From assembly GCA_024137785.1 (NCBI GenBank), contig JAHRHZ010000067.1:7848088-7912087 (forward strand): DNA of 64,000 nucleotides. The letters run 5' to 3'. The DNA comes from Ginglymostoma cirratum. Lineage: Eukaryota. This document shows, piece by piece, positions 23,051 through 55,790 of this stretch (position 1 is its first letter; the number at the start of each line of letters is the position of its first letter). The position numbers were made by a program, and so were the translations under genes. Below the pieces are notes generated by a model, which saw nothing but the letters and a program-made list of their open reading frames with translations, did not search any database and was not told where the DNA came from.

Positions 23051-23456
23051 TAAATCTCCCCTCCCCCAACCGCATCCCAAAACCAGCCCAGCTCATCTCC
23101 ACCTCCCTAACCTGTTTTTCCTCTCACCTCAAGCCACACCCCCATCTCCTATCTACTAACATCATCCCGCCCCCTTGACCTGTCCGTCCTCCCTGGACTG
23201 ACCTATCTCCTCCCTACCCCCCTACCTACACTCACCTTTACTGGCTCCATCCCCGCCTCTTCGACTTGTCTGCCTCCTCTCCACCTATCCTCTCCTCTAT
23301 CCATCCTCTATCCGCCTCCCCCTCTCTCCCTATTTATTTCAGAACCCTCTTCCCCTCCCCCATTTCTGATGAAGGGTTTAGGCCCGAAACGTCAAGTTTT
23401 CCTGCTCCTATGATGCTGCTTGACCTGCTGTGTTCATCCAGCCCCATGCTTGTTAT
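23051..23456 (+). mobile_element. Penelope-like element family 1, 3' UTR/pseudo-LTR fragment with 14-bp TSD
   Basis: Near-identical inverted copy of 50950-51370, flanked by CATTGAAGGAAGTA at 23037-23050 and 23457-23470. Confidence 0.92.
23366..23393 (+). ncRNA. Minimal hammerhead ribozyme motif (PLE-associated)
   Basis: CTGATGA-A-GGG(TTTAGG)CCC-GAAA-CGTC: CUGANGA and GAAA boxes, stem II, palindromic ACGU and a GUC cleavage triplet. Confidence 0.7.
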
Positions 23457-24329
23457 CATTGAAGGAAGTAGTTACCTTTCAGCTCACATTTCTAGAGAAT
23501 GGATTATAAAAAAAAATTCAACTTGCAAATCCTGAGTGACAATGGTATCCTGGTGAAACTTACTGCTAGACTGTTATAAAAGTTCAAATTTGAAATTATA
23601 GCTCATATTTATGTAGTGCTTTGTAATGCTAAAAACAAAGAAAAATAATTGTAAAAGTAAGAACAATTAAATGCATAAAATAAGAATGCTGAAATGTTTG
23701 CACTTGCTTTTGCTTTCAGTCTGAAGCTTATAATTGGATCAACGACTAGCCTCCATTTGCAGACTGCCACCACATAAATTTAAGACATCTTTCTAATGAA
23801 ATGTTGCAAGCAAAGACTCTAATTTTGACCATGTCACAAGGTAAATTAGGAAATTGAATTTTTATTGTATTATTTTGTTAATGCTTTCTTAAACCTTTTT
23901 GATCAAACAGTTTACTGAATTGATGTCATAGAAATCTCACCCTTCTAAACTGCCTGTGATAATGAAAAATGTAATTAAACCTAACATAAATATTGATATT
24001 CAGATGGTCCAAGGCCACATTGCAGCTACAAAAATGAAAACATTTTACTTGAAAAATGTTACAAAAGTCAAAATCTTACATGATTTGAAAAGGTGCAGTG
24101 TGTTGAAGTGGCTATCAAGACTCCACCAAGCATATGTTCTCACAGTAATCCCTCAGAGAATCACATTTGAGTGGAACACTCACCTGCATTCTTCCTGGGA
24201 TGGACAATTTCTTAAAGTGGTGTACTACAATAAAATGACACACACACAGTGGGATTGTGTAGGCGTCTGAGCAATGTGGGCTATGGTGAATTGTGTTGTC
24301 GAATTGGGCAACAAGTGTGGTGAGGCCCA

Positions 24330-26570
24330 TCTGGATGTTGCAATCTTATTTTTGCTTTTCGCAAGCACGTGGCGTGATTCTCACTTGGCAGCAGCGAGAT
24401 ACCAATTGACTGGGATTAATGCTTGTTAAACACCTTGTTAATGGCACAACTCACCTCATTAACATTCAGCACTGCCCCACCACCCCCCCTAAAGATTTTA
24501 CCTAATTCACCAAAGTAACTAGATATTGGGAAATCTTGACAAGTAAACAAGAGCGGGTACCTGGCAGATTCACCTCGCCATTTGTTCTGAATGACCTCCA
24601 TGTTGGAAATCGAGTACCAACATCTCACTCCATGGTCAGTAGCCATATACACCTCACATTCACAGACATTGGCATCTGACATGTGACACTGCTAAGAATC
24701 TCTGTGGTACATCTCTAATTCACTTGCAGAATGTTCTGCACTTCAATGCTACATCACTGGTTGCACTAGCAACTGTCATTGTAAAGCTGTGCTCTGGAAC
24801 AAGCACCCAGGTTATGGATTGATCAGGTTAGAGATACCAGGCTCATAGTCGCTGCGTTGGCATCCCATTTAGTGCAGAAACAAAACCAGGAAGCTTGTCA
24901 TAGTTGTCAGCAGGCTTTAATCAAGTTGAGGGGAATAGCTTTGCATGGGGGTCCTGGCCCAATAAGTCAGGGCCAGCTTGGGGCAGTCACAGTCAGGATC
25001 TTCTCCTCATAAAGGGTGAGCAACCAAATGACAGGCAGCTCAACGCCCATTTTGACACTTTCTGCCTTATCGTGGGCTGTTTTCTCTTAGAATAAGAGAG
25101 ATGGCAGGCATTACAGGTGATGAAAGTGGGTGGCACAGCTTTTACTGTTCTAATGTTACACAATTCTAAAGAGGGTGCGGGAGTAGGGGGACCTGGGTGT
25201 GTAAGTACACAGATAATTGAAGGTGACAGGACAGGTGGAGACAGTAGTTGATAAAGTATACAGTGTCCTCAGCTTATTCATTGGGAAATAGAGTACAGAG
25301 CAAGGAAGTGATGTCGAACTTATGTTAGACTCAACTGGAGCATTGTGTACAGCGCATTATACCACATTATAAAAAAGATATGAATGCATTGGAGATAGTG
25401 CAGAAGCAATTTACAAAAGTAGTTCCAGAAATTAGAAAGTTCAGTTATGAGAATAGATTGGAAAAGTTGGGACAGTTCTCTTTGGAGAGAAGAAGGCTGA
25501 AAGGACATTTAATTGAGGTTTTCAAAATTATGAGTGAGCAGGAAAGCACAGATAGGGAGACATGATTCCTGCTTCTAAAAGGCACAAGAATGATAGTACA
25601 TAGATTTAAGGCGATGTGCAAAAGAAGCAAGGTGATGTGACAAAGAACTTTTTAATGCAGTACCTAGTTAGGATATGGAATGCAATACCTGAAAGTGTGG
25701 TGGAGGTAAGTTCAATTGAGGCATTCAAGAGGGCTTGGGATGACTATTCGAATAGAAATAGTGTGCAAGGGTGTGGAGAAGAAACATGCGATTGGCAATA
25801 GATTATGATGCTCGTTTGAAGAGGCAGTCAGGCTGGATAGGCTGAATGGCCTTCTTCTGCTCCATAATGATTCTGCGATTGTTGTTGCAGATGGGGAGCT
25901 GCCTCAAGTAAGTGAGTAAGCAACAGCAAGGGCATGCAGGTTCAGTGATGTCAGAGTTTGGTGTCAGTGGGAACGAGTGAGGAAGATGTTGCAAGCAATT
26001 GTGGGACTAGTAGAACATGACACCTAGTGGGCAGTGATACCAGATACAGAGTGAGGCAAGGTATCGGAGAGAAAATGGTGGCACATATCCTGACAGAGTG
26101 AAGAATGATATTGACCTTCTTCCCTTAGTGCTGGGCATTCCTCTGGATGGCTGATAGTGCTTTAATCCAGGTAGCATACTTGAATCAGGTTGACATGGCG
26201 TAATATCGTGGTCTCCGTTGCTTGGCCTAGGCGAAGAGAAAGTACCACGTCAGCTTCATCCCATCCAGCAGAACCTACAAGACCCCATCCACACAATGGG
26301 GCAAAAATTGTCTGCCATGTCCAGGACAAATGTCAGCAATTGTGCTTGCAGCTCCAGGCCGTCCGTGAAGGTCCATGATGGACTTTTAAAGATTATGTGA
26401 GTACAATGGATACATTGTTTTGGTGAATGGTGTGTTGTTCCAGGAGTGGCACATGGTAAGATGGGGCAGAAATCAGACATGAGAGAAACCATAAGGACGT
26501 GGTAGGTAATCAATGCGGCAAGTTTGGTAGGATATGATGGGAGAACCTGCTAAACCTTGTGGTGAAAAGT
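24330..26570. mobile_element. Fossil PIF/Harbinger-like DNA transposon, interrupted by a CR1
   Basis: Minus-strand decayed Myb/SANT-like peptide at 26108-26277 (VLLDG..LF..RRP..W..LSAIQRNAQH*GKKVN) in relatively GC-rich flanks. Boundaries are uncertain. Confidence 0.5.
25170..25875 (+). mobile_element. CR1 LINE 3' fragment
   Basis: LEIVQKQFTK..SYENRLEKLG..LIEVFKIM..VRIWNAIPESVV, followed by a 3' UTR. Confidence 0.9.
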
Positions 26571-28199
26571 CCCTCAAAAAACTTAACACAATTTGGACTT
26601 AGCCAAAGAAAGGTAAGATACAGCCTACTGTTTAATTGCATATTTTCTCAATCATTTCCAGTTTTCTTGATACAGAGATATAAATTTCATATGTATTGAA
26701 GTGTTGTCATCTGCAAAATAAATGTTAGAACTCAATTCATAGATATACATCTTGCCCTCTTCTATCCAGTACCCTGCCTTTGGACATGAAAGAAAATGGG
26801 AACCTATGCCAAAGGACTGAAATATCAACTCCAATAAGATTAAGAATTTAAAAATAAATCAGCACTATCATGATAATACATCAGCCTTCTCACTGATCAT
26901 CCAATAGATGCGGCTTAGATTACAGGAGTATCTGAGGAGCAGTGTGGAATAATCTCCACAATGGAGCATTTTGAAGACTTAGAGCTTTGTTTAGACTGAT
27001 AATTTGAATTTATGTCTTTTTACATGGCAATCAACAAGTCTTTTTAGATTAAGAAGCAGGCTGAATTCTACTCCCACACTGCATTTTAATGATGTGCTGT
27101 GACCAGTGTTGTTAATGTCAGCTTTTATTCTAATCCACTGAGATGAATAGCTTTCCCTTGAAAACGTGAACCCAGGTCCTAAAGACTTTGGCACATGTAC
27201 TTTTAAAGTATTAAATTTTTAACTGAATTAATTTAATTACAACCTTTCAATTAAATTCACTGGTGACAAAGTTTTAATGATGTAGAGGAGAATATATGAA
27301 TGAAAATACCTTCATTTTGAAAATTTACCATTTCTTCCAGAATGGTGGTTATTTTCAACCCCTACGTATTTTGTTTATTCATATCATTGACAAGTGTTCT
27401 ACAAACTTCTCTCTTGCTTTGTAATTGGCAGGTACTAAACATACAATGTAGCTGCAAGTTGCACATCTGGACAAAATCCCATATTCACAGGATAGAAGCT
27501 GTGCAAAAGCTTTAGCATCTGCCAAATGATAAATTGGAAGAAATATTCAACAGGTAGGTATCTTTAGGTGGGTCATATACATAGGAAACGTTTAACCATG
27601 GTCTACTCACATTCAACTAGCTACACCTTCCTCCTAAATGTGAGAGCTATGTTTTCCTTTTAACTTGGCTAAATTTGAAGTTTTCCAAATGAATAAATTT
27701 TTTAATCCTGTTAATGAATCTTTTTTCTAGTTTTACATTATTTTCTAGTTGAGTAGTTCTGAAATTTTTGTATCCTGACTCCAGCAAAATTCTTGTGTTG
27801 CGCTAGCTATGGACAGTAATGGCATTAAGTTCAAAAAAATGTTATCCATTACAGAGAATACAGAAGCAATATGTGTTACTAAGTAATCCATGTGTTCTGT
27901 GTATATCAGTACAAGCAAAACTAGGAAGGTCAAATGAGAGTGATGGGTGGGAACATACAATTCACTTGTTCTTAGTGTGCAAAAGTTTAATTATGTATTC
28001 ATAGCACATTCTTAACAACGCTTGATGTTAGCTCTCTCATGTGAATAAACATAAGAAGGTTAATCTGATAAATTTTGGATTTAAGTAGATAAATCAGAAT
28101 CCAATTGAAAAGTAATGGACCAGCATTCCTATGTAGACCAAAGACACACAGCTCCTCCTTCAATCCCACGATTGATCTCCCATTACATTAGGATCTGGA

Positions 28200-28790
28200 C
28201 AAGCCAAAATATAATGCAGCTTAATGTCAGCAAAATCAATGAAATCCTCAAAGTACTTTGAGCCTTGGCTCCATCTTCCTCCATGACTGCCACCTCAGAC
28301 TTAGCTGGAAACAAAACTTGGTTTCTTCTTCCCAGGCCAATCTATCACCAAGGTTGCTCCTGCAATATCACAGATCTCCACCACCAGCCCTTCTTCCCCC
28401 TGCCCCCGCAATTAGAGCTATTATTCACAGTTAAAACACCTCACATTGGTTTCCTTCCCCAACATTTTCCATGCTAACATCTCTGTTACCATTCATGTTT
28501 TCCACAGTCCTCCTGCACGGCCCATGCCTTTGCCAAGCTATAATGGTGATCATTGCACAGAAAAATGATTTAAAATTCTTGTCCTGACTTCAGTTTTTTC
28601 CATTTAATTACCCTATACTGTCACGATAATCGTTGCAAGTTCTGTATTCTTGCTCATACTATCTGGTCTTCAAACATCAGCTTATTTTTCCTTTTCTGTT
28701 CCCTCTGCTTCAACATTTATGGCTTCTCCTTCAATCACTGATGTCTGAAAGTTAGCTCATCACAAATTTTAAAATCTCCTCATTTCCTCG
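28200..28790 (+). mobile_element. Very old L2-like LINE 3' fragment
   Basis: Weak colinear similarity to the L2 copies at 49.7-50.3 kb and 57.9-58.5 kb (FKILVL motif near 28570). Confidence 0.4.
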
Positions 28791-28851
28791 TTAACCATAC
28801 TTTTTTCCCTCCTCTCCTCTTTCTACTCTGTACCCACTCACTATCTATCAC

Positions 28852-29436
28852 CTTATTTGATTTATTGTAGTCACATGTACCCAAGCACGGTGAAAAGCTT
28901 TGTTTGCAAGCAGTACAGTCAGATCATGGTAAGCAAGGACCTACAGATCATAGGGTGCTTAGACAGAGTGAGGCATACAGGTTACACTGCACAGGAGGTG
29001 CGCAAAGCAAAATCCACATTAACAAGATCAACATTACTTGAAGTAGAGAGTCCATTCATCAGTCTAATAGCAGCAGGGAAGAAGCTGTTCTTGAACCTTT
29101 TGGTGTGCATGTTCAAGCTTCTGTGTCTTCTGCCTGACATAAAAGGTTGTAAGAGAGCATTAGCGTGGTGGGAGGGGTCTTTGATGATGTTGGCAGCCTT
29201 TCTGTGGCAATGAGAAATGAAAAGGGAGTCCATGGATAGGAGGCAGTCTCCTGTGATAGTCTGGGCTGTGCACACATCCTTCTGTAGTTTCTTATGGAGC
29301 TGCGCAGACCAGTTGCTGTACCAGGGCCTTATGCACCTGGACAGTATGCTTTCTGAGGTGCATCTGTAAAAGTTGGTGAGGGCCGTTATGGACATGCTGA
29401 ATTTCCTAAGCTGCCTGACGAACAAGAGGCATTGTA
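28852..29436 (-). mobile_element. Rex1/Babar-clade LINE 3' fragment
   Basis: LTNFYRCTSESILSRCI..WY..KKLQK..KAANIIKDPSH..SGRR..RFKNSFFPAAIRLMN; homologous to 53.4-54.5 kb. Confidence 0.88.
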
Positions 29437-29771
29437 TAAAATCAGTGAGATGGTACATTATCTGTATTGGCATTCCACATGTATTTTGCACAGAATCCAT
29501 CTGTGGGAAAAGGCCATACCATCCTAAGTTGATGTGGAAAACAAAAAGCAGTTAAGAAGAAGCATATCAATTTTATATGATTGCTGCAAACCTAAAATGT
29601 ACAAATCTGACCAGTTCAATAAAACAAACTGACTGAAGCCACAAGTACAACCTGATCTACTTAAGGGAAAAATGTGGGTTTGAATCGGATGTGTATGTTA
29701 CACCCCATTCAATTTTACTGTATTTTGCCTAAACTGGTTATGGATTAAAAAGATACCCAGGCATTTTATTT

Positions 29772-29908
29772 GAGATAACAAGGTGTAAAGCTGGATGAAC
29801 ACAGCAGGCCAGGCAGCAACTGAGGAGCAGGAAAGCTGACGTTTCGGGTCTGGACCCTTCCTTGTTATCTCAAATTCTCTAGCATTGGCAGTTCCTACTA
29901 TCTCTGAG
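29772..29908. mobile_element. Miniature Penelope family-1 insertion (inverted pseudo-LTR plus tail) with 14-bp TSD
   Basis: GAGATAACAAGG...CCTTGTTATCTC inverted ends; CAGGCATTTTATTT at 29758-29771 and 29909-29922. Confidence 0.9.
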
Positions 29909-30229
29909 CAGGCATTTTATTTTATACTTTTGTCCTAATTTCATATACTGCTTCAGTTCAGGTGGTGTGATAATGTTCACTGCAAAATGTAACATCTTTG
30001 TGAGTAAGATTTGGAAATATCGGCTGGTGCATTTATTTATTTTGGACCGCACGATCATACAATTCTTATTCAGATTGAGTTTGAAGTGAGATATGCTGGC
30101 ATGCGTGCACATAAAATTTTGGGATCTCATCCTTGGCAGAGCTGGTGGCTACAAGTGGTTTGTGCACATTTCAAAAAGATGAAGCTTATTTTTTTTTAAG
30201 AGTTAGCTCTTTGTAAAACTTCTCACATA

Positions 30230-30575
30230 CCAAAACACTTCACAGTTTACAAAATTATTTTGAAGAGTCATTTACGTAGACAGTTGTGACAGTTAATTTG
30301 CATACAGCAATGTACCTGTACTTCAAACAGTAAATAACTGACCTGTTAATCTCTTTTCGGTGATGTTCGATATCAGCATAATTCCCCTGTTCCCCTTCAG
30401 AAAGTACCCTGGTGTATGTTCGCACCTACACAGGAGTGGATTTGACTTTCATTTTAAGTCTTATCCAAAGGCAAGGCAACACTCCACTGAAATATCAATT
30501 TAGACTATGTGTGGGATGAAGCTTTAAGATGAGATTTCTTATTGAGAAGCATGGATGTTATTACTGAGCCAAGCC
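30230..30575 (-). mobile_element. Old tRNA-derived Deu-domain-type SINE
   Basis: Reverse A box (ACTGAGCCA near 30563) and a body matching 37190-37610. Confidence 0.6.
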
Positions 30576-30607
30576 AATGGTTAGTATTAGCTTCTATAGT
30601 GTTGAAT

Positions 30608-30818
30608 GGTGGAGTTTGGTTAGCTCAGTTGGCTGGACAGATGGTTTGCAATGCAGAGTGATACCAACAACAGAGGTATACTGGCTGAGGTTACCAAGAA
30701 AGTCCCATTTCTCAACTTCTCCCTTCACCTGAGGCACAGAGACTCAGGGATTAAACTACCACCAGTCATCTCTAATGAGAGAGCAGTCTATGGTCCTGTT
30801 GAATATGGCAACTTTACA
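30608..30818 (+). mobile_element. tRNA-derived SINE (third family)
   Basis: A box TAGCTCAGTTGG; body and tail shared with reverse copies at 45285-45410 and 58500-58645. Confidence 0.8.
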
Positions 30819-32780
30819 TAATATTGAGTGCCTACCTGTTTTCCACGTCACAGACGTTCAACATAGTAATGTGTTTAAAATAATTGTTGGTAAATGCTCC
30901 TATTTCTTCAATTTACTCATTCAATGGAACAAGTACTCTCCAAATGCAATACCTATGGTCACAGTTAGACTACAACTACCAACCTGAAACAGAATCTTAC
31001 GTGGTGTGATCACAGTCGGCAGACTTTTTGCTATGTTTGCAGACGTATTGAAAACATATACTTCAACACGTACTGGATTCTGCTCCATCTGCTGCTCATT
31101 TTTAATGTTAGGAAATAGAGGTAACACTATTCTCAAGCATTAAAGAAATTAAATGGTAAATTTTAAAATTTTCCAGGTCATGCAGTGGCATACATACAAA
31201 GTAAATATAGATCAGTGTATGAGAGAATCTTTTGGATAGGTGTTGCATTATTTGCCTTCAATGCACTCGTGTCATGAAATATGAGTTTTGTTTGCACCAA
31301 TACATATCAAATACTAGATTCACATCAAAATGGACAGTATCACTACAACCAGGATGGCCCCCGTTGAGTCAGGCAGCTTCCCAGTGATGTTCATATATGG
31401 AATTCTTGATGAGAGTCTGCTTCCTTTCCCTTTGCCTGACCATACTGCAGTATTATTTGATGTGTAGAAGAAGGAAAATTCTGATGATGTAGTAAAAAAA
31501 TCCTGCACATCAACACCAGCAATACTGAACTTTACTTAAAGCTGCGAAAAAATAATATTTAGCACAGAAGTTACGAATTTCTTAGTTAACATAAGGAAAC
31601 TTTCATCTGCTTGGGGTTGTTATGTTATATTTTTAAGGACAGAGAGAGCCAAGCAACATTTCCCCAGTTATTTACTTAGAGGCATATTTTTATTATGGTG
31701 CAGCTTTTTTTAAATATGTGCATTTTCCTTCTAGAAACTTGATCGGCAAATGAGTTCAATTCAAAGTGTGCTGTAACTTCATATTTTTACCTTTTCCCGT
31801 CTCATTCTGTGATAAGATTTGACCCGTAGCTAAGAAGTTGGATGAACCAATCATAGTGGTAGATTTCCTGTTGTTCTGTGCCTGTGGACCACCTCGGTTG
31901 CAGTGCTGAGATAAGTGGCAAATAATTTAAGAGGCAACAGCATCAAACCTTTGTTGGAGACTAAAGCAGGGTCAGCGCCTGTCAGTTCACAGCAGCTTTG
32001 CTGCGTGGGTGGTAAGCCTAGGCCACAAAGGAAGTTACTAAACAGCAGTGACAACAGTCACTTCAAATACTGTTTCTCGTTTAGTCTTATCACAGGAAGA
32101 ATTAACTTAAATGCAGTTGTAGATCCAAGCAAATAACTATATTTTGAAATGTTATTAATAAATATACATAGGGTGCTTAACAACAACTATTGGAAATAGA
32201 ATCAACGCTGCGTCAAAATGAAGAAACAGGTCAGACCCATACCAAAATATCCAAAATTCTCATATCAGAAATTAACAAATTTTATTGCAACAGGAGAAAG
32301 TCTAATTCAGATAAATAGTAAGAAAATTGTTTGCTTTAACAGGGGGATTTGATTAAATTTCTTTTGATCGGCGTAAAGATTAGAATTCCATGGAGAAATG
32401 AAGAGATTAAGAAAAAGTAAGGCTCAGAAAAGATGCTGATAATAATTAGAGGGGAATTAATGCACAAATAAACTGTGAGAAATATAAAAGGTATAGCAGG
32501 GAGGCAAAGGAAGGATATAAATGAAGGTGGATAGCAAGGACTGTTGTAAACAGAAGAGAGATCAAAGAATAGTTCAAAAAGGAAGATCTTTAATTAATCT
32601 GAATGAGAGAGTAGCAAAAGTTACTTAGTAAGTGTTTCACCTCAGTTATATAGAAGAGATTAAGGGAAGGCCAGTGTATTTTTAACTCTATCAGCAGATA
32701 AAGCTGATTAAATATACTGCAAATGTCTCTTTTTCTCCCCACTTTCATTGTGACAGTGTCTAAAATGAATGGACAACAGG

Positions 32781-33110
32781 AATCATAGAATAGTTTAGAG
32801 CATGAAGAGGCCAATCATGAGCTTGAGTCTGTGCCAAGTATTTCAAAAAGCAACCCAGTTTCCCCATGTCCCCGGAAGTTTTTCTTCTTCATTGATGTAT
32901 CCAATTTTCTTTTGAAAACATGTCTTGAAGCTGTATCCACTGTATCATCAGGCAGTGCATCCAAATCCTAACCACTGATTGAGGGAAAAATAATTTCCTC
33001 ATGTCACCCATGCCTCTTGCCAATCACTTTCAATCTGTCACCTCTGGTTATCCACCATTCATCAATTGGAAACCCCTTATCTTTCAACACATTATCTAAT
33101 TCCTTCTTGA
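32781..33110 (-). mobile_element. Decayed CR1 3' end
   Basis: Begins GAATCATAGAAT and is colinear with the reverse-strand CR1 3' ends at 43.3 kb and 60.6 kb. Confidence 0.7.
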
Positions 33111-33429
33111 GAATAGCCTAAGAATAGTAAACTCTGAAAGTGCACATCACCGGATGGTCAAAGAAGGGTCACAGGAAACACAACCTCATTTGTCGTACAT
33201 ACTCAGTTATAGTACTTTATTGGTTATTTGTCAACTTGCATAAAAAATATCTTTGAAAAAAAGATATCAAAATGTACACACGGACGTTATCCTAGGTACT
33301 AAGCGCTACTCAATAACATATGAAAATCATAACGGCAAATTAGTTACATGAATCCAGTTGAAAAGTGAGATGAATTCTATATTTAATAACACATTATCCA
33401 ATTTCCCTTCTATTCCCCGAGTGGAGAAT

Positions 33430-33740
33430 AAAATAAGAACAGAGAAGACAGGAATGGGAATAGACTATTCAGTCCATTGAGCTACATTTGACATTTTGGT
33501 TGCCATTCTAACTCTTCACATTTATATTTATCTTCTCTTCAACCACATCAGATGATCCCATTACCTTTCAGGGCAGTTATGTTCTACAGTCACACTATTC
33601 TGGATTCAATTTTAACCGAACCACCATTATCAAATTATACAGCCTGTGCAATCGTAAATGTAGAAGGCACTTTGGTAAGTCCCATGGTATTATGTAAAGA
33701 GACATTCTTTCATCTCCCTATTAAACTATATCTGCCAGCT
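33430..33740 (-). mobile_element. Highly decayed CR1 3' end
   Basis: ATAAGAACA...AGGA...ATTCAG.CCATTGAGC reverse 3' UTR signature. Confidence 0.45.
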
Positions 33741-34665: not shown

Positions 34666-36071
34666 TTAAGTCTTTAGGTGGAATTATTAAATTTTTTAAG
34701 TTGCTGCTTACAAGAATCTATCTTCCTACGTTAATATATATTTTCATATTACTAAGAGCTCTTTCATGTTGAAATAATTCTTGTAAAATTCTCCTTTAGT
34801 TATACAATGTTCTACCACTACCTTAAATGTGTATGTGTTTGATTTCTTAAGTGTACAGAAATGCACAGCCTGATACTATAGTGTAATCCCACTTAGTTAA
34901 TCCAGTTAATTCAGATTCAGAAAATAATTGTATCATTGCACTTGATGGAGAAGAGGATTGAACTCCTATATATAAGGTTCCTGACTCAAAATTATTTCAT
35001 TAGTGGGCAGTTCTCTGAGTAGAATGATTTGTGATATAAGTAGTTTAGTTGGCATTCATGGCTGGCCATTTCTGAATTCAGCTTGCATCCCCTAACTTGG
35101 CAAATGAACTTGATGCTACAATTTTCTGGCAACTGCGAAGGCAAGACCACCCCTAAGAAACTCAGGGGATTATATGACCACCCTGCACTCCCAAAAACCA
35201 AGTGAGTTTCTGTAAGTTTCTGCCACGCCTCCTAAGCATCTTCTCCATTGCAAAAAAATCATCTTCCTAATGGAGCAAATATGGTTTGTTTATCTGTTGA
35301 CTAGAAATCTACATAACAACTATAACCCTCAATCCATACTGCTCCACCCTCTGCTGATTAGAAGCTGTAATGGTCAAATGCTTTCCTTTGTACATTGACT
35401 GACAAACCCCAGGCAAACCCACACTTCCTATTTCAGATTAGAAGAATCTGCTCCAGAACAGTTGACGCCTGCTGACAGTAAATTGTATGGTGTTGAATAT
35501 CTCCACACAGGATACTTCCCCATTCAAAAATTTCCCATCCCACTTTTGTGACATAAGATATATTGCTTTCTGTACATAGTATCTCAAAATAATCATAGAC
35601 CATTGCCATCCTGCAGGAAACAAAATTGTAGCCTTTCTTTTCAGCTTTATATTTATTTTAATTTTTGTTTTTCCATTTGGCCATCTTCAAATCAATTCAC
35701 TGTCAGTCTACAGCTTTATACCATTCTTCAGAGCAGCCATCAACAAAGGCCTCTGTTCATGTAACTTTTATATTTGGTCTAAGTCAGACCGATACCACAC
35801 AACTAGACCTTACACCTTTATATCCATCCACTCCAGTTATGATGTGGCCAGAGTCACTTCTTTTTCAGATCAAGAGAAACCCTACAGTAGAAAAATTGGT
35901 GTACAAGTTGTTTAGTTCTTGACTTAGTTCTACATAAAACTAAAATGGAAAGAGAACTTGAAGCAGAAGCACATAACGCTGGACATAACACAAATGTATC
36001 CTTAAAAGGAAAAAGGACAGATCAATGTTTTGGCTGGTGATCCCTTGATATCCTGAACACTTACTTGTCTT

Positions 36072-36390
36072 AACAAGGTGTAGAGCTGGATGAACGCAGC
36101 AGGCCAAGCAGCATCAGAGGAGCAGGAAGGCTGATGTTTCGGGCCTCGACCTTTCTTCAGAAATGAGGGAGGGGAAGGGGGTTCTGAAATAAATAGGGAG
36201 AGAGGGGGAGGCGGATAGAAGGTGGAGAGAGGAGAAGATAGGTGGCGAGGAGACAGACAGGTCAAAGAGGCGGGGATGGCCCAAAACATCAGCCTTCCTG
36301 CTCCTCTGATGCTGCTTGGCCTGCTGTGTTCATCCAGCTCTACACCTTGTTATCTCAGATTCTTCAGCATCTGCAGTTCCTACTATCTCC
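36072..36390. mobile_element. Penelope family-1 fold-back insertion with 14-bp TSD
   Basis: ~75-bp near-perfect inverted repeat (36071-36145 vs 36278-36352); TSD CACTTACT(T/C)GTCTT at 36058-36071 and 36391-36404. Confidence 0.92.
36133..36160 (-). ncRNA. Decayed minimal hammerhead motif
   Basis: CTGAAGA-A-AGGTCGAGGCCC-GAAA-CATC (ACGT changed to ACAT by CpG decay). Confidence 0.5.
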
Positions 36391-38047: not shown

Positions 38048-38530
38048 GTGAATTTGAATCTGCAGATACAGTCCATTTTGTTCAAAAAGCACACAATTTA
38101 TAGACAGTCAGTCAATGTGGTGTTTTATAAATTCCTACTTTAGAAATAAAACCAGTCTGACTCCAGACCAAAACACAAATAGATTCTAAACAAGGTCTCA
38201 CACCTAACATGCATTATCTGACCTAAAATGTCACCTCTTCTTTACCTGATAAAACCTTTAGTTCTCTCAGAGCAGTGACTTGAAGGAAATTCAGGGATTT
38301 ACATATACATATTAATCAATTAAAACCTTCTAACTGATTAAAGATTTAACAGCATCTTAGGTTTGTTTAATACATCCTCATTAGTGGTGTGACTCTTTGG
38401 TCTTTCACTTATAAATTCTGTGTCTGATTCCACCTGTCTCACTAACATCTGAAGAAGGAGCGAGGCTCTGAAAGCTTGTGTTTTTAAATAAACTTGTTGG
38501 ACTATAACCTGGTGTCGTGTGATTTCTGGC
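38048..38530 (+). mobile_element. Penelope-like element family 3, 3'/pseudo-LTR segment
   Basis: Ends in a hammerhead-like motif followed by AATAAACTTGTTGGACTATAACCTGGTGTCGTGTGATTT. The left boundary is uncertain. Confidence 0.6.
38444..38483 (+). ncRNA. Minimal hammerhead ribozyme motif, second type
   Basis: AACAT-CTGAAGA-A-GGAGC(GAG)GCTCT-GAAA-GCTT-GTGTT: stem I AACAT/GTGTT, 5-bp stem II, palindromic AAGCUU. Confidence 0.6.
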
Positions 38531-39345
38531 AATGTAAATTAGGATTCCATTTTGGCTGTAGGACCCAATATACAATTTTCAAGTAACAATTTACATCATT
38601 TCTAAAAAGGCTTGTGAAAGATGCTTCATAAATGATCTTGAACAATTTCTGCAGACATCTGTGCAGGAACAAGAAAAGCAAAATTGCTGCTCCTGGCCTG
38701 CCAAACTACCTCAATATGCTGCCAGTTACTGGACAGCTTCATTCTATTGGCCTTCCTCATTTTTGTGCATTTTAAAAGCATTTCAAATATTATGCATAAT
38801 CTGACATTTCTAACTATGCGGCTTAAACATTATTCAAACAGGTTGAACTTTTGGCTTAGTGGTGCGAATTGCTGAGTCAAAGGAATCGGGGCTTGAATTC
38901 TGTTCTCAAGTGGTGACTGGAATTCTGGATCTGAATTGTAGATTGTTATCCAGGAGGATACCGCAGATGATGGATAAGTTTACATGGTCGCTTCTCAGCC
39001 TGTTAATCAGCTTGGAATTCCTTCCATCTCTCTGTTCCAAAAGAAGATTGTGATACAACAAAAATAGCAATCCTATTCTCATTGATAAGTTCTATTTTAT
39101 TCTTTATTTAAAATATAGTATGTGGAGTCCATTCACAAGTAGACCACAATCTCACTGAATGGCAGAACAAATTTGAGATGGCTTGGGCCTGTTCCTATAT
39201 TCTCATATATAGCAATAGTAAAATGATGACCATTTAACTTTTTAGCTAAGAGGGACACTCTCTGAACCAATAGATTTTAACGTGAAGCAACTGATATAGT
39301 TTCTTAGGTCAAAAACCACTGCTAGTATGACAACCGTATGTGTAC

Positions 39346-41969: not shown

Positions 41970-42100
41970 CAGACCTGATGAAAGGCATTTACCTAAAACA
42001 TAATCTGACTTTTCTTATCAGACATATTATTTGTTGGGACTATTATTAGTCATTACTTGCTACATTTTAAGTTTCCGTTCAGCATTTGCATTTTTAAGAA
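41970..42100 (+). mobile_element. Very old Penelope family-2-like pseudo-LTR
   Basis: CTGATGAA-AGG(CATTTA)CCT-AAAACAT, then decayed similarity to 42320-42460. Confidence 0.4.
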
Positions 42101-42319: not shown

Positions 42320-42460
42320 GGTTCTGAAGAAGGGTCACTAGACCCAAAATGTTAACTCTGCTTTCTCTCCACAGATGCTGCCAGACCTGCTGAGTTTCTC
42401 CTGCAATTTCTGTTTTTGTTTCTGATTTCCAGCGTCCACAGTTCTTTGGGGTTTTGTTTT
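42320..42460 (+). mobile_element. Penelope family-2 pseudo-LTR with decayed hammerhead
   Basis: CTGAAGAA-GGGTC(ACTA)GACCC-AAAATGTT...AGATGCTGCCAGACCTGCTGAGTTT; repeated at 52560, 55540 and 63890. Confidence 0.7.
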
Positions 42461-43261: not shown

Positions 43262-45153
43262 GAACAAAGATCAAAGAAAATGGAAAATTACAGCACAGGA
43301 ACAGGCCCTTCGGCCCTCCAAGCCTGAACTGATCCAGATCCTCTATCTAAACCTGTCGCCTATTTTCCAAGGATCTGTATCCCTCTGCTCCCTGCCCATT
43401 CATGTATCTGTCTAGATACCTCTTAAATGATGCTATCGTGCCCGCCTCTACCACCTCCGCTGGCAATGCATTCCAGGAACCCACCACCCTCTGCGTAAAG
43501 AACTTTCCACGCATATCTCCCTTAAACTTTTCCCCTCTCACCTTGAAATCATGACCCCTAGTAATTGAATCCCCCACTATGGGAAAAAGCTTCTTGCTAT
43601 CAACCCTGTCTATACCTCTCATGATTTTGTAGACCTCAATCAGGTCCCCCCTCAACCTCCATCTTTCTAATGTAAATAATCCTAATCTACTCAACCTCTC
43701 TTCATAGCTAGTGCCCTCCATACCAAGCAACATCCTGGTGAACCCCCTCTGCACCCTCTCCAAAGCATCCACATCCTTTTGGTAATGTGGCGACCAGAAC
43801 TGTACGCAGTATTCCAAATGTGGTCAAACCAAAGTCCTATACAACTGTAACATAACCTGCCAACTCTTGCACCCAATACCCCGTCCGATGAATGAAAGCA
43901 TGCCGTATGCCTTCTTGACCACTCTATCAACCTGCATTGCCACCTTCAGGGTACAATGGACCTGAACACCCAGATCTCTCTGTGCATCAGTTTTCCCCAG
44001 GGCTTTTCCATTTACCGTATAGTTCGTTCTTGAATTGGATCTTCCAAAATGTATCACCTCACATTTTCCTGCGTTGAACTCCATCTGCCATTTCTCCGCC
44101 CAACTCTCCAATCTATCTACATTCTGCTGCATTCTCCAACATTCCCCTTCACTATCTGCTACTCCACCAATCTTAGCATCATCTGCAAACTTGCTAATCA
44201 GACCATCTATACCTTCCTCCAGATCATTTATGTATATCACAAACAACAGTGGTCCCAACACGGATCCCTGTGGAACACCACTGGTCACAGTTCTCCATTT
44301 TGAGAAACTCCCTTCCTCTACAACTCCCTGTCTCTTGTTGCCCAGCCAGTTCTCTATCCATCTAGCTAGTACACCCTGGACCCCATGCGACTTCACTTTC
44401 TCCATCAGCCTAACTTGGGAAACCTTATCAAATGTCTTACTGAAGTCCAGGTAAATGACATCTACAGCCCTTCCATTATCTATCAACTTTGTCACTTCCT
44501 CAAAGAATTCTATCAAGTTGGTAAGACATGACCTTTCCTGCACAAAACCATGCTGCCTATCACTAATAAGCCCATTTTCTTCCAAATGTAAATAGATCCT
44601 ATCCCTCAGTATCTTCTCCAGCAGCTTCCCCAACGCTGACGTCCGGCTCACCGGTCAATAATTACCTGGATTATCCTTGCTACCCTTCTTAAACAAGGGG
44701 ACAACATTAGCAATTCTCCAGTCCTCCAGGACCTCACCTGTGCTCAAGGATGCTGCAAAGATATCTGTTAAGGCCCCAGCTATATCCTCTCTCGCTCCCC
44801 TCAGAACCTGGGATAGATCCCATCTGGACCTGGGGACTTGTCCACCCTAATGCCTTTTAGAATACCCAACACTTCCCCCCTCCTTATGCTGCCTTGACCA
44901 ACAGTGATCAAACATCTATCCCTAACCTCAACATCTGTCATGTCCCACTCCTCGGTGAATACCGACACAAAGTACTCATTAAGAATCTCACTCATTTTCT
45001 CTGACTCCTTGCATAACTTCCCTCTATTGTCCTTGAGTGGGCCAACCCTTTCTCTAGTTACCCTCTTGCTCCTTATGTATGAATAAAAGGCTTTGGGATT
45101 TTCCTTAGCCCTGTTTGCTAAAGATATTTCATGACCCCTTTTAGCCCTCTTAA
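43262..45153 (-). mobile_element. 5'-truncated CR1 LINE (relatively young), inserted into an older CR1 fragment
   Basis: 275-aa RT segment (QHGF, LDFSKTFDKV, GVPQGSVLGP, FADD) and C-terminal ORF. Older CR1 pieces at 43215-43260 and 45170-45275 are colinear across it. Confidence 0.96.
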
Positions 45154-45410: not shown

Positions 45411-45469
45411 TTCACCAGATAGTTTGGAAAACCTTCTCTTGGCTGTTTCCAATGCATTTACATTCTTCT

Positions 45470-47752: not shown

Positions 47753-47769
47753 AATAAGGAGCCCAATAC

Positions 47770-50310: not shown

Positions 50311-51012
50311 ATAAACATAGGTTATTGTTGTTTATATTCTGAACCATTCTGTTCTGCAGTGAATTAAGAGAAGAACAGAGTGAAGTAAACTGTTAGTGTA
50401 TAAATAAGGACATTCTGAGGATATCATCTATTTTTCAGCACTTCCAGATGCTGAGCAACAGACCAACAGAAACTGGAGAACAGATTATTTTTTTGACAGG
50501 AAATAGTACACTGTGGTGAAGCTACTAAAATGGGGACAAAATAATATATTTTCATTTTCTTTCCCTCCTGATTGAGAATAGCTATCTAAGAAGTCCGTCA
50601 TCAAATTCACACCAGCCTACCACTAAATATTTTGGGCACTTTTCCATTGTATGATGCCTTCCAGAACAGTGGATAAATGGACATTGATGCCACCAAAGGT
50701 GATATGGTATGCAGAATGAAAAGCACAGGGAGAAATTTTGTGTTTGGCAAGTATATGAACAGTGGGATGTTATTGTACTCATTTGTGAAAGTGAAGAGAG
50801 TGCAAAAATTATTGTTGGAAATGACAGAATTTGTATTTGGTTTCGTTTTTAATGCACATGCAGAAGCATAATTTTTTTCAATAAGCAACACAATAAGATG
50901 AGTTCTGTGATAGAGATAAAAGGTACTGCAGATACTGGAGAATCCGAGATAACAAGGTGTGGAGCTGGATGAACACAGCAGGCCAAGCAGCGTCATAGGA
51001 GCAGGAAAACTT

Positions 51013-51040
51013 GACGTTTCGGGCCTAGACCCTTCATCAG
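51013..51040 (-). ncRNA. Minimal hammerhead ribozyme motif (best-preserved copy)
   Basis: CTGATGA-A-GGGT(CTAG)GCCC-GAAA-CGTC; weak stem I ATTT/AAGT. Confidence 0.72.
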
Positions 51041-51312
51041 AAATGGGGGAGGGGAAGAGGGTTCTGAAGTAAATAGGGACAGAGGGGGAGGCGGATAGAG
51101 GATGGATAGAGGAAAGGATAGGTGGAGAGGAGGCAGACAAGTCGAAGAGGCGGGGATGGAGCCAGTAAAGGTGAGTGTAAGTGGGGGGGTAGGGAGGAGA
51201 TAGGTCAGTCCAGAAAGGACAGACAGGTCAAGGGGGCGGGATGAGGTTAGTAGATAGGAGATGGGGGTGGGGCTTGAGGTGGGAGGAGGGGATAGGTGAG
51301 AGGAAGAACAGG

Positions 51313-52548
51313 TTAGGGACGCGGGGACGAGTTGGGCTGGTTTTGGGATGCAGTTGGGGGAGGGGAGATTTTGAAGCTTGTGAAATCCACATTGATACCA
51401 TTGGGCTGCAGGGTTCCCAGGCTGAATATGATTTGCTGTTCCTGCAGCCTTCGGGTGGCATCACTGTGGCATTGCAGGAGGCCCAGGATGGACATGTCAT
51501 CTGAGGAATGGGAGGGGGAGTTGAAATGGTTCGCGACTGGGAGGTGCAGTTGTTTGTTGCGAACTGAGCGCAGGTGTTCTGCAAAGCGGTCCCCAAGCCT
51601 CCGTTTGGTTTCCCCGATGTAGAGGAGGCCACAATGGGTACAGCGGATGCAGTATACCACATTGGCAGATGTGCAGGTGAACATCTGCTTGATGTGGAAA
51701 GTCTTCTTGGGGCCTGGGATTGGGGTGAGGGAGGAGGTGTGGGGGCAGGTGTAGCACTTCGTGCGGTTGCAGGGAAAAGTGCCGGGTGTGGTGGGGCTGG
51801 AGGGGAGTGCGGAGCGGACAAGGGATCCACGGAGAGAGTGGTCCCTCCGGAAAGCAGACAAGGGTGGGGAGGGAAAAATGTCTTTGGTGGTGGGGTCGGA
51901 TTGCAGATGGCGGAAGTGTCAGAAGATGATGCATTGGATCCAGAGGTTGGTGGGGTGGTACGTGAGGATGAGGGGGATTCTTTTTTGGTTATTATTGCGG
52001 GGACGGGGTGTGAGGGATGAGTTGCGGGAAATGCGGGAGATACGGTCGAGGGCGTTCTCGACCACTGTGGGGGGGAAGTTGCGGTCCTTGAAGAATGAGC
52101 ACATCTGAGATGTACGGGAGTGGAATGTCTCATCCTGGGAGCAGATGCAGTGGAGGCGAAGGAATTGGGAATAGGGGATGGCATTTTTGCATGAAGGTGG
52201 GTGGGAGGTGGTGTATTCTAGGTAGCTGTGGGAGTCGGTGGGCTTGAAATGGATATCGGTTTCTAGGTGGTTACCCGAGATGGAGACAGAGAGGTCCAGG
52301 AAGGAGAGGGAGGTGTTAGAGATGGTCCAGGTGAACTTCAGGTTGGGGTGGAAGGTGTTGGTGAAGTGGATGAACTGTTCGAGCTCCTCGTGGGAGCACG
52401 AGGCGCCGCCGATACAGTCATCAATGTAACGGAGGAAGAGGTGGGATTTAGGGCCAGTGTAGGTACGGAAGAGGGATTGTTCCATGTAACCTACAAAAAG
52501 GCAGGCATAGCTTGGGCCCATGCGGGTACCCATGGCCACCCCCTTTGT
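51313..52548 (-). pseudogene. Penelope RT/GIY-YIG endonuclease ORF (5'-truncated, one internal TGA)
   Basis: ORFs 51919-52539 and 51313-51861 are in the same frame, separated only by TGA at 51919-51921. Confidence 0.92.
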
Positions 52549-52559
52549 CTGTTCTGTTT

Positions 52560-52657
52560 CATGTTCTGATGAAAAGTCACTGGACTTGAGACATTAACTC
52601 TATTTCCCTCTTAAGATGCTGCTAGACCTGCTGAGTTTCTCCAGCACTTTCTGTTTA
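52560..52657 (+). mobile_element. Penelope family-2 pseudo-LTR, left part (resumes at ~54537-54565)
   Basis: CTGATGAA-AAGTC(ACTG)GACTT-GAGACATT...AGATGCTGCTAGACCTGCTGAG; the missing tail CTCCAGCATTTGCAGTTCTTT appears after the Rex1 element. Confidence 0.7.
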
Positions 52658-53636
52658 AGCCTGTACCCAAGGCACATGCAGTGTGCTTTAATGACTACTG
52701 CCCAACAGCTCTGACTTCAATAATAATGAAGTGCTTTGAGAAGCTGGTCATGGCCCACATCAACTCCAGTCCCCCAGCGTGCCATGATTCCCCTACAGTT
52801 TGCCTATCGACATTACAGGTCCACAGAGGATGCCATATCCCTAGCCCTGCCCTCATCCCTGGAACATCTGAACAACAGAGACACCTATGTTAGACTCCTG
52901 CTCATTGACTACAGCTCCGCCTTCAGCAACTTTATCCTCCCCCAGATTGATCTCAAAACTGTGTGACCTTGGTCTCAGCTCTGTCCATTGCAAGTGGACC
53001 CTCAGCTTTCTGACCAATAGGCTGCAATCTTCTCCACAATAACACTCAACACTGGAGCTCCCCAAGGATGCGTTTTCATGCCCCCTACTGTACTCGCTGT
53101 ACACCTATGAATGTGTTGCCAAATTCCGAATGAACACCACCTAGAAGCTCACTGATTACACAACCATAGTGGGACGGATATCAAACAACAACAAGTCAAA
53201 ATACAGAAGGGAGATACAGAGCTTGGTGACGTGGTACAATGAAAACAGTTTATCTCTCAACATTGGCAAAACTAAAGAACTGAACATCGATTTCAGAAAG
53301 AAAGGAGGAGAACACACCCCCCATCTACATCAACAGAACTGAGGTTGGGAAGGTGAAGAACATCAAGCTCCTCGGAGTGACGATAACTGACGACCTGTCC
53401 TGGACTTCCCACATAGATGCGACAGTCAAGAAGGCACAACAATGTCGCTTCTTCCTCAGGCGTCTCAGGAAATCTGGCATGTCCATAAGGTCCCTCACCA
53501 ACTGCTGCAGATGCACCATACTATTTGGGTGCATAACGGCCTGGTATGGCAACTGTTCTGCCCAGGACCATTAGAAACTATAGGAAGTTGTGTGCACAGC
53601 CCAAACCATCACGGAAGCCAACCTTCCATTCATGGA

Positions 53637-54204
53637 TAACAAGGTGTAGAGCTGGATTAACACAGCAGGCCAAGCAGCATCNNNNNNNNNNNNNNNNNNN
53701 NNNNNNNNNNNNNNNNNNNNNNNNNNNNNNNNNNNNNNNNNNNNNNNNNNNNNNNNNNNNNNNNNNNNNNNNNNNNNNNNNNNNNNNNNNNNNNNNNNNN
53801 NNNNNNNNNNNNNNNNNNNNNNNNNNNNNNNNNNNNNNNNNNNNNNNNNNNNNNNNNNNNNNNNNNNNNNNNNNNNNNNNNNNNNNNNNNNNNNNNNNNN
53901 NNNNNNNNNNNNNNNNNNNNNNNNNNNNNNNNNNNNNNNNNNNNNNNNNNNNNNNNNNNNNNNNNNNNNNNNNNNNNNNNNNNNNNNNNNNNNNNNNNNN
54001 NNNNNNNNNNNNNNNNNNNNNNNNNNNNNNNNNNNNNNNNNNNNNNNNNNNNNNNNNNNNNNNNNNNNNNNNNNNNNNNNNAGAAGGGTCTAGGCCCGAA
54101 ATGTCAGCCTTCCTGCTCCTCTGTTGCTGCTTGGCCTGCTGTGTTCATTCAGCTCCGCACCTTGTTATCTCAGATTCTCCAGCATCTGCAGTTCCTGCTA
54201 TCTT
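53637..54204. mobile_element. Penelope family-1 fold-back insertion nested in Rex1, spanning an assembly gap
   Basis: Inverted arms on both sides of the gap; TSD TTCCATTCATGGA at 53624-53636 and 54205-54217. Confidence 0.88.
53682..54081. other. Assembly gap
   Basis: 400 N residues. Confidence 0.99.
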
Positions 54205-54929
54205 TTCCATTCATGGACTCCATTTACACAGCTCGTTGCTGCAGAAAAGCAGCCAACATCATCGAAGACCAATCGCTCCCTGTTAATGACCTCCTACAAC
54301 CTCTTCTGTCAGGTAGAAGATACAGACACCCGAACACAAGCACAAGCAGGTTCAGGAACAGCTTCTTTCAGGCCATTATCAGACTGTTGAACGAACTCTA
54401 GCCTCAAATAATGTAACCTGCAACGTAACCTATATACCTCTATGTCTTTTTGATCTGTACAGCTCATTAGCAAAGCTTTTCACCTTTTTCACGTATTTCG
54501 GTGCACGTGACGATAAAATCAATCAATCTAAAAAAGGTCTCCAGCATTTGCAGTTCTTTGTTTTAATATCATATCAAGGGGTGGGGTTAGGGGATTTGTT
54601 GGCTTTTGAATTTGCTTTTAAAGTGACTCTAACAGCCTTTTTCTCACTTACCCGTCTATTTTGCGTGCGAAGTAACAAACAAAGGTTTTCCATTGGCTTT
54701 TGAATTACTGCAATGGCTAACTTTCATTGTGAAATACTTCAAAAGGACTCAGTTGCCTCATGTTAAAAAGGAAGTATTTTGTAATGGAAAGTGGTGTGAC
54801 CTGCAACATCCAGCTACTGAATGCATCTGTCTCGGAATTACTTTATCAGCAAGTTGTCTGGGTTTGATGTCAGGGGAGAACTTGATTACTGTCAAGTATT
54901 ACAAGATTACTGCTTTTCATGAAAAGAAA

Positions 54930-55790
54930 CATCAATATTTATTTACATAGTATCTTTGCCATGATGAAACATTCTGTGTTGCTTCATATGAATATCATAC
55001 ACTTAAGCATGACACTGACCCCATTAGGAGACATTTGATCAATTGAGCAAAAATTCGGTCAAACAGATAGGTTTTAAAGGTGGAAAATAGGGAGGCAGAT
55101 TGGTGTAAAGAGGGCATTCTGGAGCTTAGTGCCTTGGTATCAAATGGTGCACCAATTATAAATGGTGCTGCTCAAGATGCCAGAATCAATGAGCACAGAT
55201 CTTGGAGGTGTGTGGAGCTGGAGATTACAGTGGTAAAAAAGAGCAAGGCCAAGGAGAGATTTGAAAACAAGGATCAAAATTTTGAAATCAAGGCTTTGTT
55301 TTATATGGGGCTAGTGTGATGGTTGATTTGGATTTGGTACAAGACACAGGCAGCAAAGCTTTGGATGACTTCCAGATAATGGAATATTAGAATATGGGCG
55401 AGCAGATAAAAGTGCACTGGAAGAGTTAAGTCTGGAGTTGGAGAAGGCATGTAAAGGTGTTCAATAGCAGATTAGCTAAGATGAGGTATGATATAAGTCA
55501 ATGTTTTTCAGCTGAAACAGGTGGTCTTAGTGATGGAACAAGTACAGAAATTGCTGGAAAAGCTCAGCAGGTCTGGCATTATCTGTGGAGAGAAATCCGA
55601 GTTAATGTTTCAAGTCGAGTCGCCCTTCCCCAGAATCATTCCACAGATGCTGAGCTTTTCCAGCTTCTGTTTTTGTTTCTGATTTCCAGCATCCTCAATT
55701 CTTTCTGTCTTAGTGATAGTGTGGATATGTTGATGGAAGGTCATCTCAGGATCAAATTTGACATGAGGGTTCTGATGTTGTAAAGCCTAT
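54930..55790 (-). mobile_element. Decayed L2 LINE 3' fragment
   Basis: Colinear with 57900-58490 (GGAGAGATTTGAAAACAAGGAT..AATTTT.AAATCAAG). Confidence 0.7.
55536..55706. mobile_element. Penelope family-2 fold-back insertion in L2
   Basis: Inverted plus direct pseudo-LTR pieces; TSD GTCTTAGTGAT at 55524-55534 and 55707-55717. Confidence 0.8.

What the first reader, a model, noticed from the sequence alone, without database searches (positions are those of the whole stretch)
23051..55706. Dense population of hammerhead-ribozyme motifs carried by three Penelope-like families
Seen: about ten CUGANGA-A-[stem II]-GAAA-[palindrome] motifs. Intact-looking copies lie at 23366-23393(+), 51013-51040(-) and 38449-38478(+). 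Decayed or partial copies lie at 29838-29860(-), 36133-36160(-), 41975(+), 42324(+), 52566(+), 54082(+) and ~55605-55633(-). Stem II differs between families but keeps pairing (GGGT/GCCC, GGAGC/GCTCT, GGGTC/GACCC, AAGTC/GACTT), and all have one extra A after CUGANGA. Established: PLE pseudo-LTRs encode minimal type I hammerheads with a palindromic stem III that can fold as dimers. Inference: this density implies a very large genome-wide set of self-cleaving motifs in this shark, mostly on short non-autonomous insertions, which could affect transcripts that read through them.
Basis: partly seen in the sequence, partly recalled or inferred. Interest (0 to 1): 0.7.

Follow-up and report, generated by a model that had tools for sequence, protein, structure and literature searches.

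The report
Penelope retroelement mini-hammerheads, 150,000 copies
The motifs are real: they are the known miniature hammerhead sequences in the end repeats of Penelope-like jumping genes, present in over 150,000 core-intact copies in this genome, but the scattered copies decay like neutral DNA and are predicted to be mostly inactive, so this is a known thing at an unusually large scale.

Summary
Observation confirmed. The motifs are minimal type I hammerheads in the pseudo-LTRs of Neptune-type Penelope-like elements; one lies in sense 276 nt behind an RT/GIY-YIG reading frame in the window. The extra A, the palindromic stem III and mass dispersal were described in 2014 (PMC4209133). Genome-wide, 156,227 strict cores match against 383 in the control, far above the 4,000-9,000 published for coelacanth and Xenopus; stems I, II and III covary between families. 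The window is not a hotspot. The host-effect idea is not supported: the catalytic G12 is lost by CpG decay as often as its tolerated neighbour (7,209 vs 7,165), an adjacent NLK-like gene holds 18 sense and 19 antisense copies, and copies are mostly solo or head-to-head, not tandem. One feature stands out: 73 of 202 sampled copies, and about half of young family A genome-wide, begin within 9 nt upstream of the core, only 7 at the cut site. This fits copying of uncleaved RNA to a start site at the ribozyme's edge (inferred). The scan noted these elements, and the fixed start, before on other DNA.

The parts
23051..23457 (+). Family A 5'-truncated PLE end (3' UTR + pLTR, short 3' end at +92), flanked by a 14-bp target-site duplication (23037-23050 / 23457-23470)
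23362..23397 (+). Core-intact minimal hammerhead, family A1: stem I 4 bp, stem II 4 bp, ACGU palindrome, predicted cut after GUC at 23393
29768..29904 (-). Family A arm starting at G8 (core lost; 29768-29860) joined to an inverted tail piece (29860-29904); 14-bp TSD
36071..36389 (.). Head-to-head family A pair: 36071-36279(-) with core but G10.1A and broken palindrome, 36278-36389(+) truncated inside stem II; predicted to fold as one long hairpin on either strand; 8-bp TSD match
38048..38535 (+). Family B PLE end behind a CA repeat and an N stretch; 5' limit not readable
38444..38482 (+). Core-intact minimal hammerhead, family B: stem I 5 bp, stem II 5 bp (G-U at 10.1/11.1), AGCU palindrome, predicted cut after CUU at 38477
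41975..42030 (+). Doubtful old relic of family C type; G12 lost, no stem I; not a ribozyme
42321..42455 (+). Family C short copy beginning 3 nt upstream of the core; G12A
51922..52551 (-). 3' part of the family A reverse transcriptase frame (YIDD motif), 5'-truncated and ended by an in-frame stop
   Evidence: RVT_1 E 0.02, below cut-off
51316..51918 (-). Zn-finger-like linker (C-x4-C-x2-C) and C-terminal GIY-YIG endonuclease of the same family A copy
   Evidence: GIY-YIG E 2.4e-6
50911..51315 (-). 3' UTR and pLTR of that copy with the long 3' end (tail)
51009..51044 (-). Core-intact minimal hammerhead, family A1, sense to the ORF; predicted cut after GUC at 51013
52559..52682 (+). Decayed family C short copy, 5' end about 8 nt from the truncated end of the family A ORF, in opposite orientation; A14G
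53635..54203 (.). Head-to-head family A pair (53635-53681(-), 54082-54203(+)) with the middle unreadable (N); 13-bp TSD
55544..55712 (.). Head-to-head family C pair: (-) arm begins 2 nt upstream of a decayed core (A6G), (+) arm 55627-55712 lacks the core; 11-bp TSD
22174..22218 (+). Isolated family A tail fragment without hammerhead

Best explanation
These are minimal type I hammerhead motifs in the end repeats (pLTRs) of several Penelope-like retroelement families, scattered as 5'-truncated solo or head-to-head insertions that decay like neutral DNA and are predicted to be inactive in host transcripts. Shown: motif, linkage to RT/GIY-YIG frames, tail, TSDs, covariation, counts, symmetric decay. 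Inferred: the fold is kept by selection only in the source elements (N7 and loop II vary, core and pairing do not), where it would cut as a dimer or with help of the element's protein. Inferred: reverse transcription starts at two sites about 93 and 127 nt downstream of the core on both nicked strands, giving one short and one long arm, and often ends just 5' of the core, most likely because the uncleaved element RNA begins there (initiator-like CCATTTC, TCAGTTC, TCACTTC). After insertion a solo copy has no stem III partner, an inverted pair folds back on itself, and two CpGs in the core region (11.1/12 and 15.2/16.2) wear the motif away.
For: Family A motif in sense 276 nt after a GIY-YIG frame in the window; family C after GIY-YIG frames in L058 and L061 (E 2.7e-4 and 3.9e-3, below cut-off); family B locus L028 carries a related endonuclease stretch (29% identity, E 1e-12). 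Covariation in 181 distinct strict-core copies: stem I pair 1 U-A (A, C, E) vs C-G (B, D); pair 2 U-A, U-G, A-U, C-G; pair 3 U-G, G-C, C-G; pair 4 U-A 16 vs A-U 6 within B; palindrome CG vs GC; B 5' strands pair 0.84 with own 3' strands and 0.03-0.34 with others. G12A 7,209 vs C11.1U 7,165, p 0.72; in the sample 22 vs 24 for A plus C. NLK-like gene: 18 sense, 19 antisense of 37; solo 9 vs 10. Arrangement: 81 head-to-head, 61 solo, 11 only same-strand neighbour of 153; 23 of 29 listed family A pairs join a short and a long 3' end. Pair 36071-36389 folds at -182/-173 kcal/mol as a hairpin. 5' ends: 73 of 202 at -8..+1, 7 at +27..+33; genome-wide 35,128 of 73,436 keep 9 nt upstream against 65,571 that keep 9 nt downstream, while 26 of 28 long copies match the upstream 9-mer. 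Low in vitro activity of min-HHRs (PMC4209133); protein-assisted cleavage, internal priming and uncleaved RNA as template in Anolis PAc (PMC11167929).
Against: Core positions outside CpG mismatch less than downstream positions (A 23 of 590 vs 220 of 2,546; C 26 of 350 vs 203 of 1,456; B 6 of 80 vs 18 of 147), which could mean selection on inserted copies; the downstream figure is inflated by subfamily differences and indels, so the test does not separate the two. The CpG test covers young family A only, pools strands and compartments, and cannot see insertions purged at birth. The intron test is one gene, with only 3 strict-core copies. No cleavage assay and no raw RNA reads were available, so activity and start site are untested. 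The initiator-like motif is short, degenerate and recalled; in D. virilis the start lies about 120 nt upstream of the ribozyme. Family A2 has only a 2-bp stem I.
Confidence: 0.8

Rival explanations
1. One reading: the dispersed motifs cut host transcripts that read through them (by pairing between distant or separate RNAs, or helped by the element's protein) often enough to matter.
For: At least 156,227 strict cores; family sequence is abundant in contigs of runs guessed to be RNA; core bases look more conserved than downstream bases; one of nine Xenopus dimers cleaved strongly in vitro (10.64898/2026.07.22.740005).
Against: Symmetric loss of G12 and C11.1; no strand bias in the NLK-like gene; no true tandem among the 11 window copies, 81 of 153 sampled copies in fold-back pairs; the hammerhead fold equals the minimum-energy fold in 1 of 21 copies folded; eight of nine Xenopus dimers did not cleave.
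Confidence: 0.07
2. The fixed 5' end is not an RNA start: reverse transcriptase stalls at the C-rich tract or the junction is made by microhomology between the T run before the core and T-rich target ends, or by self-priming on an antisense template.
For: Many family A junctions lie in T runs; head-to-head palindromes were ascribed to antisense self-priming (PMC3846280); the Anolis enzyme prefers an ATT site near its own ORF-pLTR junction.
Against: The same position is used in families A, B, C and D, whose upstream sequences differ; T runs just downstream of the cut site draw few ends (+34..+45: 3 of 85 A, 0 of 52 C, though my filters lose copies starting later).
Confidence: 0.35
3. The short copies are self-standing non-autonomous elements (retrozyme- or SINE-like) spread from short masters, possibly through ribozyme-cut circular RNA.
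For: Fixed start and two fixed ends give units of about 100 and 130 nt; non-LTR retrozymes are reported in one chondrichthyan; L201 holds a two-unit direct repeat.
Against: Short copies share subfamily marks and ends with long ORF-bearing copies and grade into them (5' ends from -1515 to +38); junctions differ at every locus; only 7 of 202 start at the cut site; no tandem array in the window.
Confidence: 0.12
4. The boundary is a 3' splice site, as in D. virilis where the pLTR intron ends at the 5' edge of helix I.
For: PMC4209133; family C has a pyrimidine tract and CAG 3 nt before the core.
Against: Family A has no AG at -9..-1; the flanks upstream of 58 short copies show no shared upstream exon; none of the 15 joints shown (of 36) in the laid contigs has intron ends.
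Confidence: 0.08

Closest known systems
[quoted passage not shown]
   Same: Core, one nucleotide between 9 and 10.1, G10.1-C11.1, palindromic 15.2/16.2, short stem I, several consensus families per genome, mostly single dispersed motifs, opposite-strand pairs 100-700 bp apart.
   Different: Count: at least 156,227 here vs about 9,000 (X. tropicalis) and 4,000 (coelacanth), with different descriptors and a larger genome; stem II 4-5 bp rather than the 7-8 bp of Schistosoma; no cartilaginous fish is named in the parts read.
EN+ Penelope-like elements, Neptune type (Craig et al. 2021, PMC8557442; Arkhipova et al. 2013, PMC3846280; passages read)
   Same: RT then Zn-finger-like linker then GIY-YIG; strong 5' truncation; inverted 5'-truncated copy; 30-40-bp tail on one arm; short TSD.
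   Different: A sharp pile-up of 5' ends at the ribozyme's edge is not mentioned in the passages read; clade not tested by a tree.
Poseidon_Ac of Anolis (Frangieh et al. 2024, PMC11167929; parts 1-2 of 4 read)
   Same: Two internal priming sites that define the tail; uncleaved RNA as main template; no RNA-seq ends at the cut site.
   Different: Other clade; its ribozyme needed the element's protein, untested here.
Non-LTR retrozymes (10.64898/2026.07.22.740005; parts 1-3 of 5 read, supplements closed)
   Same: pLTR-derived, type I hammerhead, present in one chondrichthyan.
   Different: Defined by tandem units each with a ribozyme; the window has none.

Membership tests
PLE min-HHR | CUGANGA and GAAA core with NUH triplet | tested here: met
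   3 window copies intact; 156,227 vs 383 genome-wide
PLE min-HHR | One unpaired nucleotide between A9 and 10.1 | tested here: met
   A in 92 of 102 unselected copies spanning the core
PLE min-HHR | G10.1-C11.1 pair and covarying stem II | tested here: met
   pair 2 G-C vs A-U (E), pair 3 G-C vs A-U (B), pair 4 U-G, U-A, G-C; many of these loci were picked by patterns that fix stem II
PLE min-HHR | Palindromic 15.2/16.2 with no helix III loop | tested here: met
   ACGU in A, C, E; AGCU in B
PLE min-HHR | Short helix I | tested here: met
   4-5 bp in A1, B, C, E, not fixed by any search pattern; only 2 bp in A2
PLE min-HHR | Located in the pLTR, sense to the ORF | tested here: met
PLE min-HHR | Self-cleavage as a dimer or with protein | not testable with these tools
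   no assay; only contigs were available
Canonical hammerheads in Rfam | Match to a hammerhead covariance model (helix III with loop, full helix I) | tested here: not met
   no hammerhead family at E<=1 in the window or E<=10 in two 141-nt stretches
EN+ PLE | RT followed by C-terminal GIY-YIG | tested here: met
   RT match is weak because the copy is truncated
EN+ PLE | Optional 30-40-bp tail, inverted truncated arm, TSD | tested here: met
   3' ends near +93 and +127, contig loose ends at 50946/50912, pairs, TSDs 8-14 bp at 5 of 8 window units examined
Neptune clade | Zn-finger-like CX2-5CxxC linker between RT and EN | tested here: met
   C-x4-C-x2-C in window:51316-51918(-); feature from PMC8557442
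Neptune clade | Placement by RT phylogeny | not tested
   no tree built, no full-length element sought
Non-LTR retrozyme | Tandem units each with an intact hammerhead | tested here: not met
   0 of 11 window copies; 22 of 153 sampled copies have a same-strand neighbour 346-1545 nt away, none shown to be an array

The most novel reading that the evidence does not exclude
In these shark-type Penelope families the hammerhead's stem I overlaps the element's transcription start, and internal priming on the upstream pLTR copies uncleaved RNA out to that start. The genome would then hold several hundred thousand stumps that map the element's RNA 5' end to within a few bases, each carrying the start site, the ribozyme and both priming sites, and the ribozyme's job would be to remove the first 30 or so bases of a minority of RNAs rather than to free the copied template.
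Probability: 0.35. Interest if true: 0.55.

Novelty: new member of a known kind. Interest (0 to 1): 0.3.

Why it matters
The role of PLE hammerheads is still open in print (PMC8557442). This genome offers the largest count I found for the motif and enough copies for statistics: they show selection on the fold in source elements, none detectable after insertion, and templates that were not cut at the ribozyme site. That narrows the open question and gives natural covarying variants for assays. As a discovery it is modest: the motif class, its extra A and its dispersal are published, and the scan has met these elements many times.

Tried and rejected
Rfam found no hammerhead; its models do not cover this minimal form, so this is no evidence against. 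Idea that short copies start at the cut site: rejected (7 of 202). Idea that the window is a hotspot: rejected. The MAFFT alignment shifted family B by one column and was not used for pair counts; pairs were counted by anchoring on the core. RNA: all runs served were contigs, most only guessed to be RNA, so starts, ends and strand could not be seen. In window 19000-37800 the unique DNA between repeats had little or no contig cover in four runs; a part without cover proves nothing, and no spliced host gene was seen. A motif scan for a small gene on the + strand upstream of the NLK-like gene (window and 180 kb beyond) found none. Core-versus-flank mismatch test judged confounded. Rows dropped before the counts: local score under 60, 3' end before +60, 5' end after +45, same-strand overlaps, and five microsatellite hits; 25 of the 80 sampled 10-kb stretches read wholly N (267,473 of 800,000 bases). 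Lunse et al. on PLE hammerhead dimers was not held; only its title was seen. Paper searches found no paper on shark PLE hammerheads or on the fixed 5' end; supplements of PMC4209133 and of the 2026 preprint were not seen and may list sharks.
Full report
Observation. Three have all invariant core bases and a cleavable triplet: 23366(+), 51040(-), 38449(+). The rest are decayed, truncated or partly unreadable, and 41975 is only marginally above chance CTGANGA sites (score 36 vs at most 31 of 33 others). Rfam has no matching hammerhead model. A census by alignment gives 11 pLTR copies in the window.

What carries them. On the minus strand, 52551-51316 encodes the 3' part of a reverse transcriptase (YIDD), a C-x4-C-x2-C linker and a GIY-YIG endonuclease (Pfam E 2.4e-6), followed in sense by a pyrimidine-rich 3' UTR and the 51040 hammerhead. 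Family C follows GIY-YIG frames at L058 and L061, and a family B locus has a related endonuclease stretch. The linker is the mark of Neptune and Nematis PLEs (PMC8557442). Copies end at two points, about +93 and +127 from C3 (also loose ends of contigs at 50946 and 50912), the known 30-40-bp tail; five of eight window units examined have 8-14-bp target duplications.

Scale. Window place is G000:C67:7848088-7912087 in a 4.36-Gb genome. Family patterns give 73,436 (A), 682 (B) and 12,020 (C) exact matches with 0 in controls; a general strict core gives 156,227 vs 383. This is a lower bound, since withheld stretches read N. In 80 stretches taken at round coordinates on eight large contigs, 532.5 kb was readable and held 153 pLTR copies (85 A, 52 C, 10 B, 6 D) and 38 strict cores; scaled up this would be about 1.2 million copies of all ages (inference). 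The window is no denser than that. Two more families (D, E) turned up.

Is the fold real? Across 181 distinct strict-core copies, N7 takes all four bases, loop II varies, and stems I, II and the stem III palindrome change in pairs between families; within family B stem I pair 4 is U-A in 16 and A-U in 6 of 38. Stem I was not part of any search pattern. This is selection on the source elements (inference). The extra A is present in 92 of 102 unselected copies and is one of the four hallmarks listed in PMC4209133.

Do inserted copies matter to the host? C11.1-G12 is a CpG. Decay on one strand removes G12, the general base (PMC6155905); on the other it leaves a G-U pair. The two products are equally common genome-wide, 7,209 and 7,165 (p 0.72). 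The NLK-like gene next to the window (name recalled from its kinase motifs; exons located) has 18 sense and 19 antisense copies in 146 kb, only 3 with strict cores. Of 153 sampled copies 81 are in head-to-head pairs, 61 solo and 11 have only a same-strand neighbour within 1.6 kb. A solo copy cannot form stem III; an inverted pair folds into a long hairpin. Against this reading, core bases outside CpG mismatch less than downstream bases, a test confounded by subfamily differences. Published assays point the same way as my counts: no monomer and low dimer activity, cleavage only with protein in Anolis, one of nine Xenopus dimers active.

The fixed start. In 202 copies from two samples, 73 begin at -8..+1 relative to C3, 20 at +2..+11, 7 at the cut site (+27..+33), 33 at -50..-9 and 53 further upstream. 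Genome-wide, 89% of family A cores keep the 3 bases upstream, 48% keep 9 bases upstream, and 89% keep 9 bases downstream, while 26 of 28 long copies match the upstream 9-mer. So about half start there. The templates were therefore not cut by the ribozyme, in line with PMC11167929. The simplest reading is internal priming on the upstream pLTR and run-off at the RNA's 5' end; an initiator-like motif (consensus recalled) sits at that point in A, C and one B subfamily, and pLTR promoters are known. Stalling or microhomology is a serious rival; splicing fits less well. No raw reads were available to decide.

Comparison. It is a member of the PLE min-HHR class on every sequence feature tested; activity is untested. 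It is not a canonical Rfam hammerhead and not a tandem retrozyme. Papers seen: PMC4209133 and PMC11167929 parts 1-2 of 4; the 2026 preprint parts 1-3 of 5; PMC2377424 passages and one section; passages only of PMC8557442, PMC6765202, PMC6155905, PMC3846280, 10.1101/443036, PMC8782182; no supplements. The scan holds 137 notes with these words in at least 14 genomes; my reading was noted before that look-up.

Verdict. Real, known kind, unusually numerous, with no sign of an effect on host RNA; the fixed start is the part worth an experiment. Interest 0.3.

Noticed in passing
window 13276-14085(-) and G000:C67:7704587-7788803(-): First exon and further kinase exons of an NLK-like gene (name recalled) in a CpG island; the first exon has long His, Ala, Gly and Ser runs.
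   Followed up: partly
L116:9114-9500 and L189 (C67 about 7759500-7760050): Two short head-to-head family A arms enclose 300-390 nt unlike the element or any other held locus; the L189 unit has a 9-bp TSD match, suggesting captured DNA (capture between pLTRs is described in PMC3846280).
   Followed up: partly
window 51021-51032(-): Family A stem II with its loop is a nearly self-complementary 12-mer; co-folding two copies gives a stem II duplex rather than the stem III dimer.
   Followed up: partly
window 52551-52559: [quoted passage not shown]
   Followed up: no
L201:843-1750 and L202:604-1480: Direct repeats of family A ends: a two-unit partial tandem, and a four-arm unit with every arm starting 3-5 nt upstream of the core. 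Candidates for a natural cis dimer.
   Followed up: partly
L021, L178 (family D); L069, L151, L153 (family E): Two further hammerhead families not in the window, with other stem I and stem II pairs.
   Followed up: partly
window 43350-45102(-), 60745-62384(-), 18472-19550(+), 28985-29551, 53390-54414: Fragments of other LINE-type reverse transcriptase elements; ordinary repeats.
   Followed up: no
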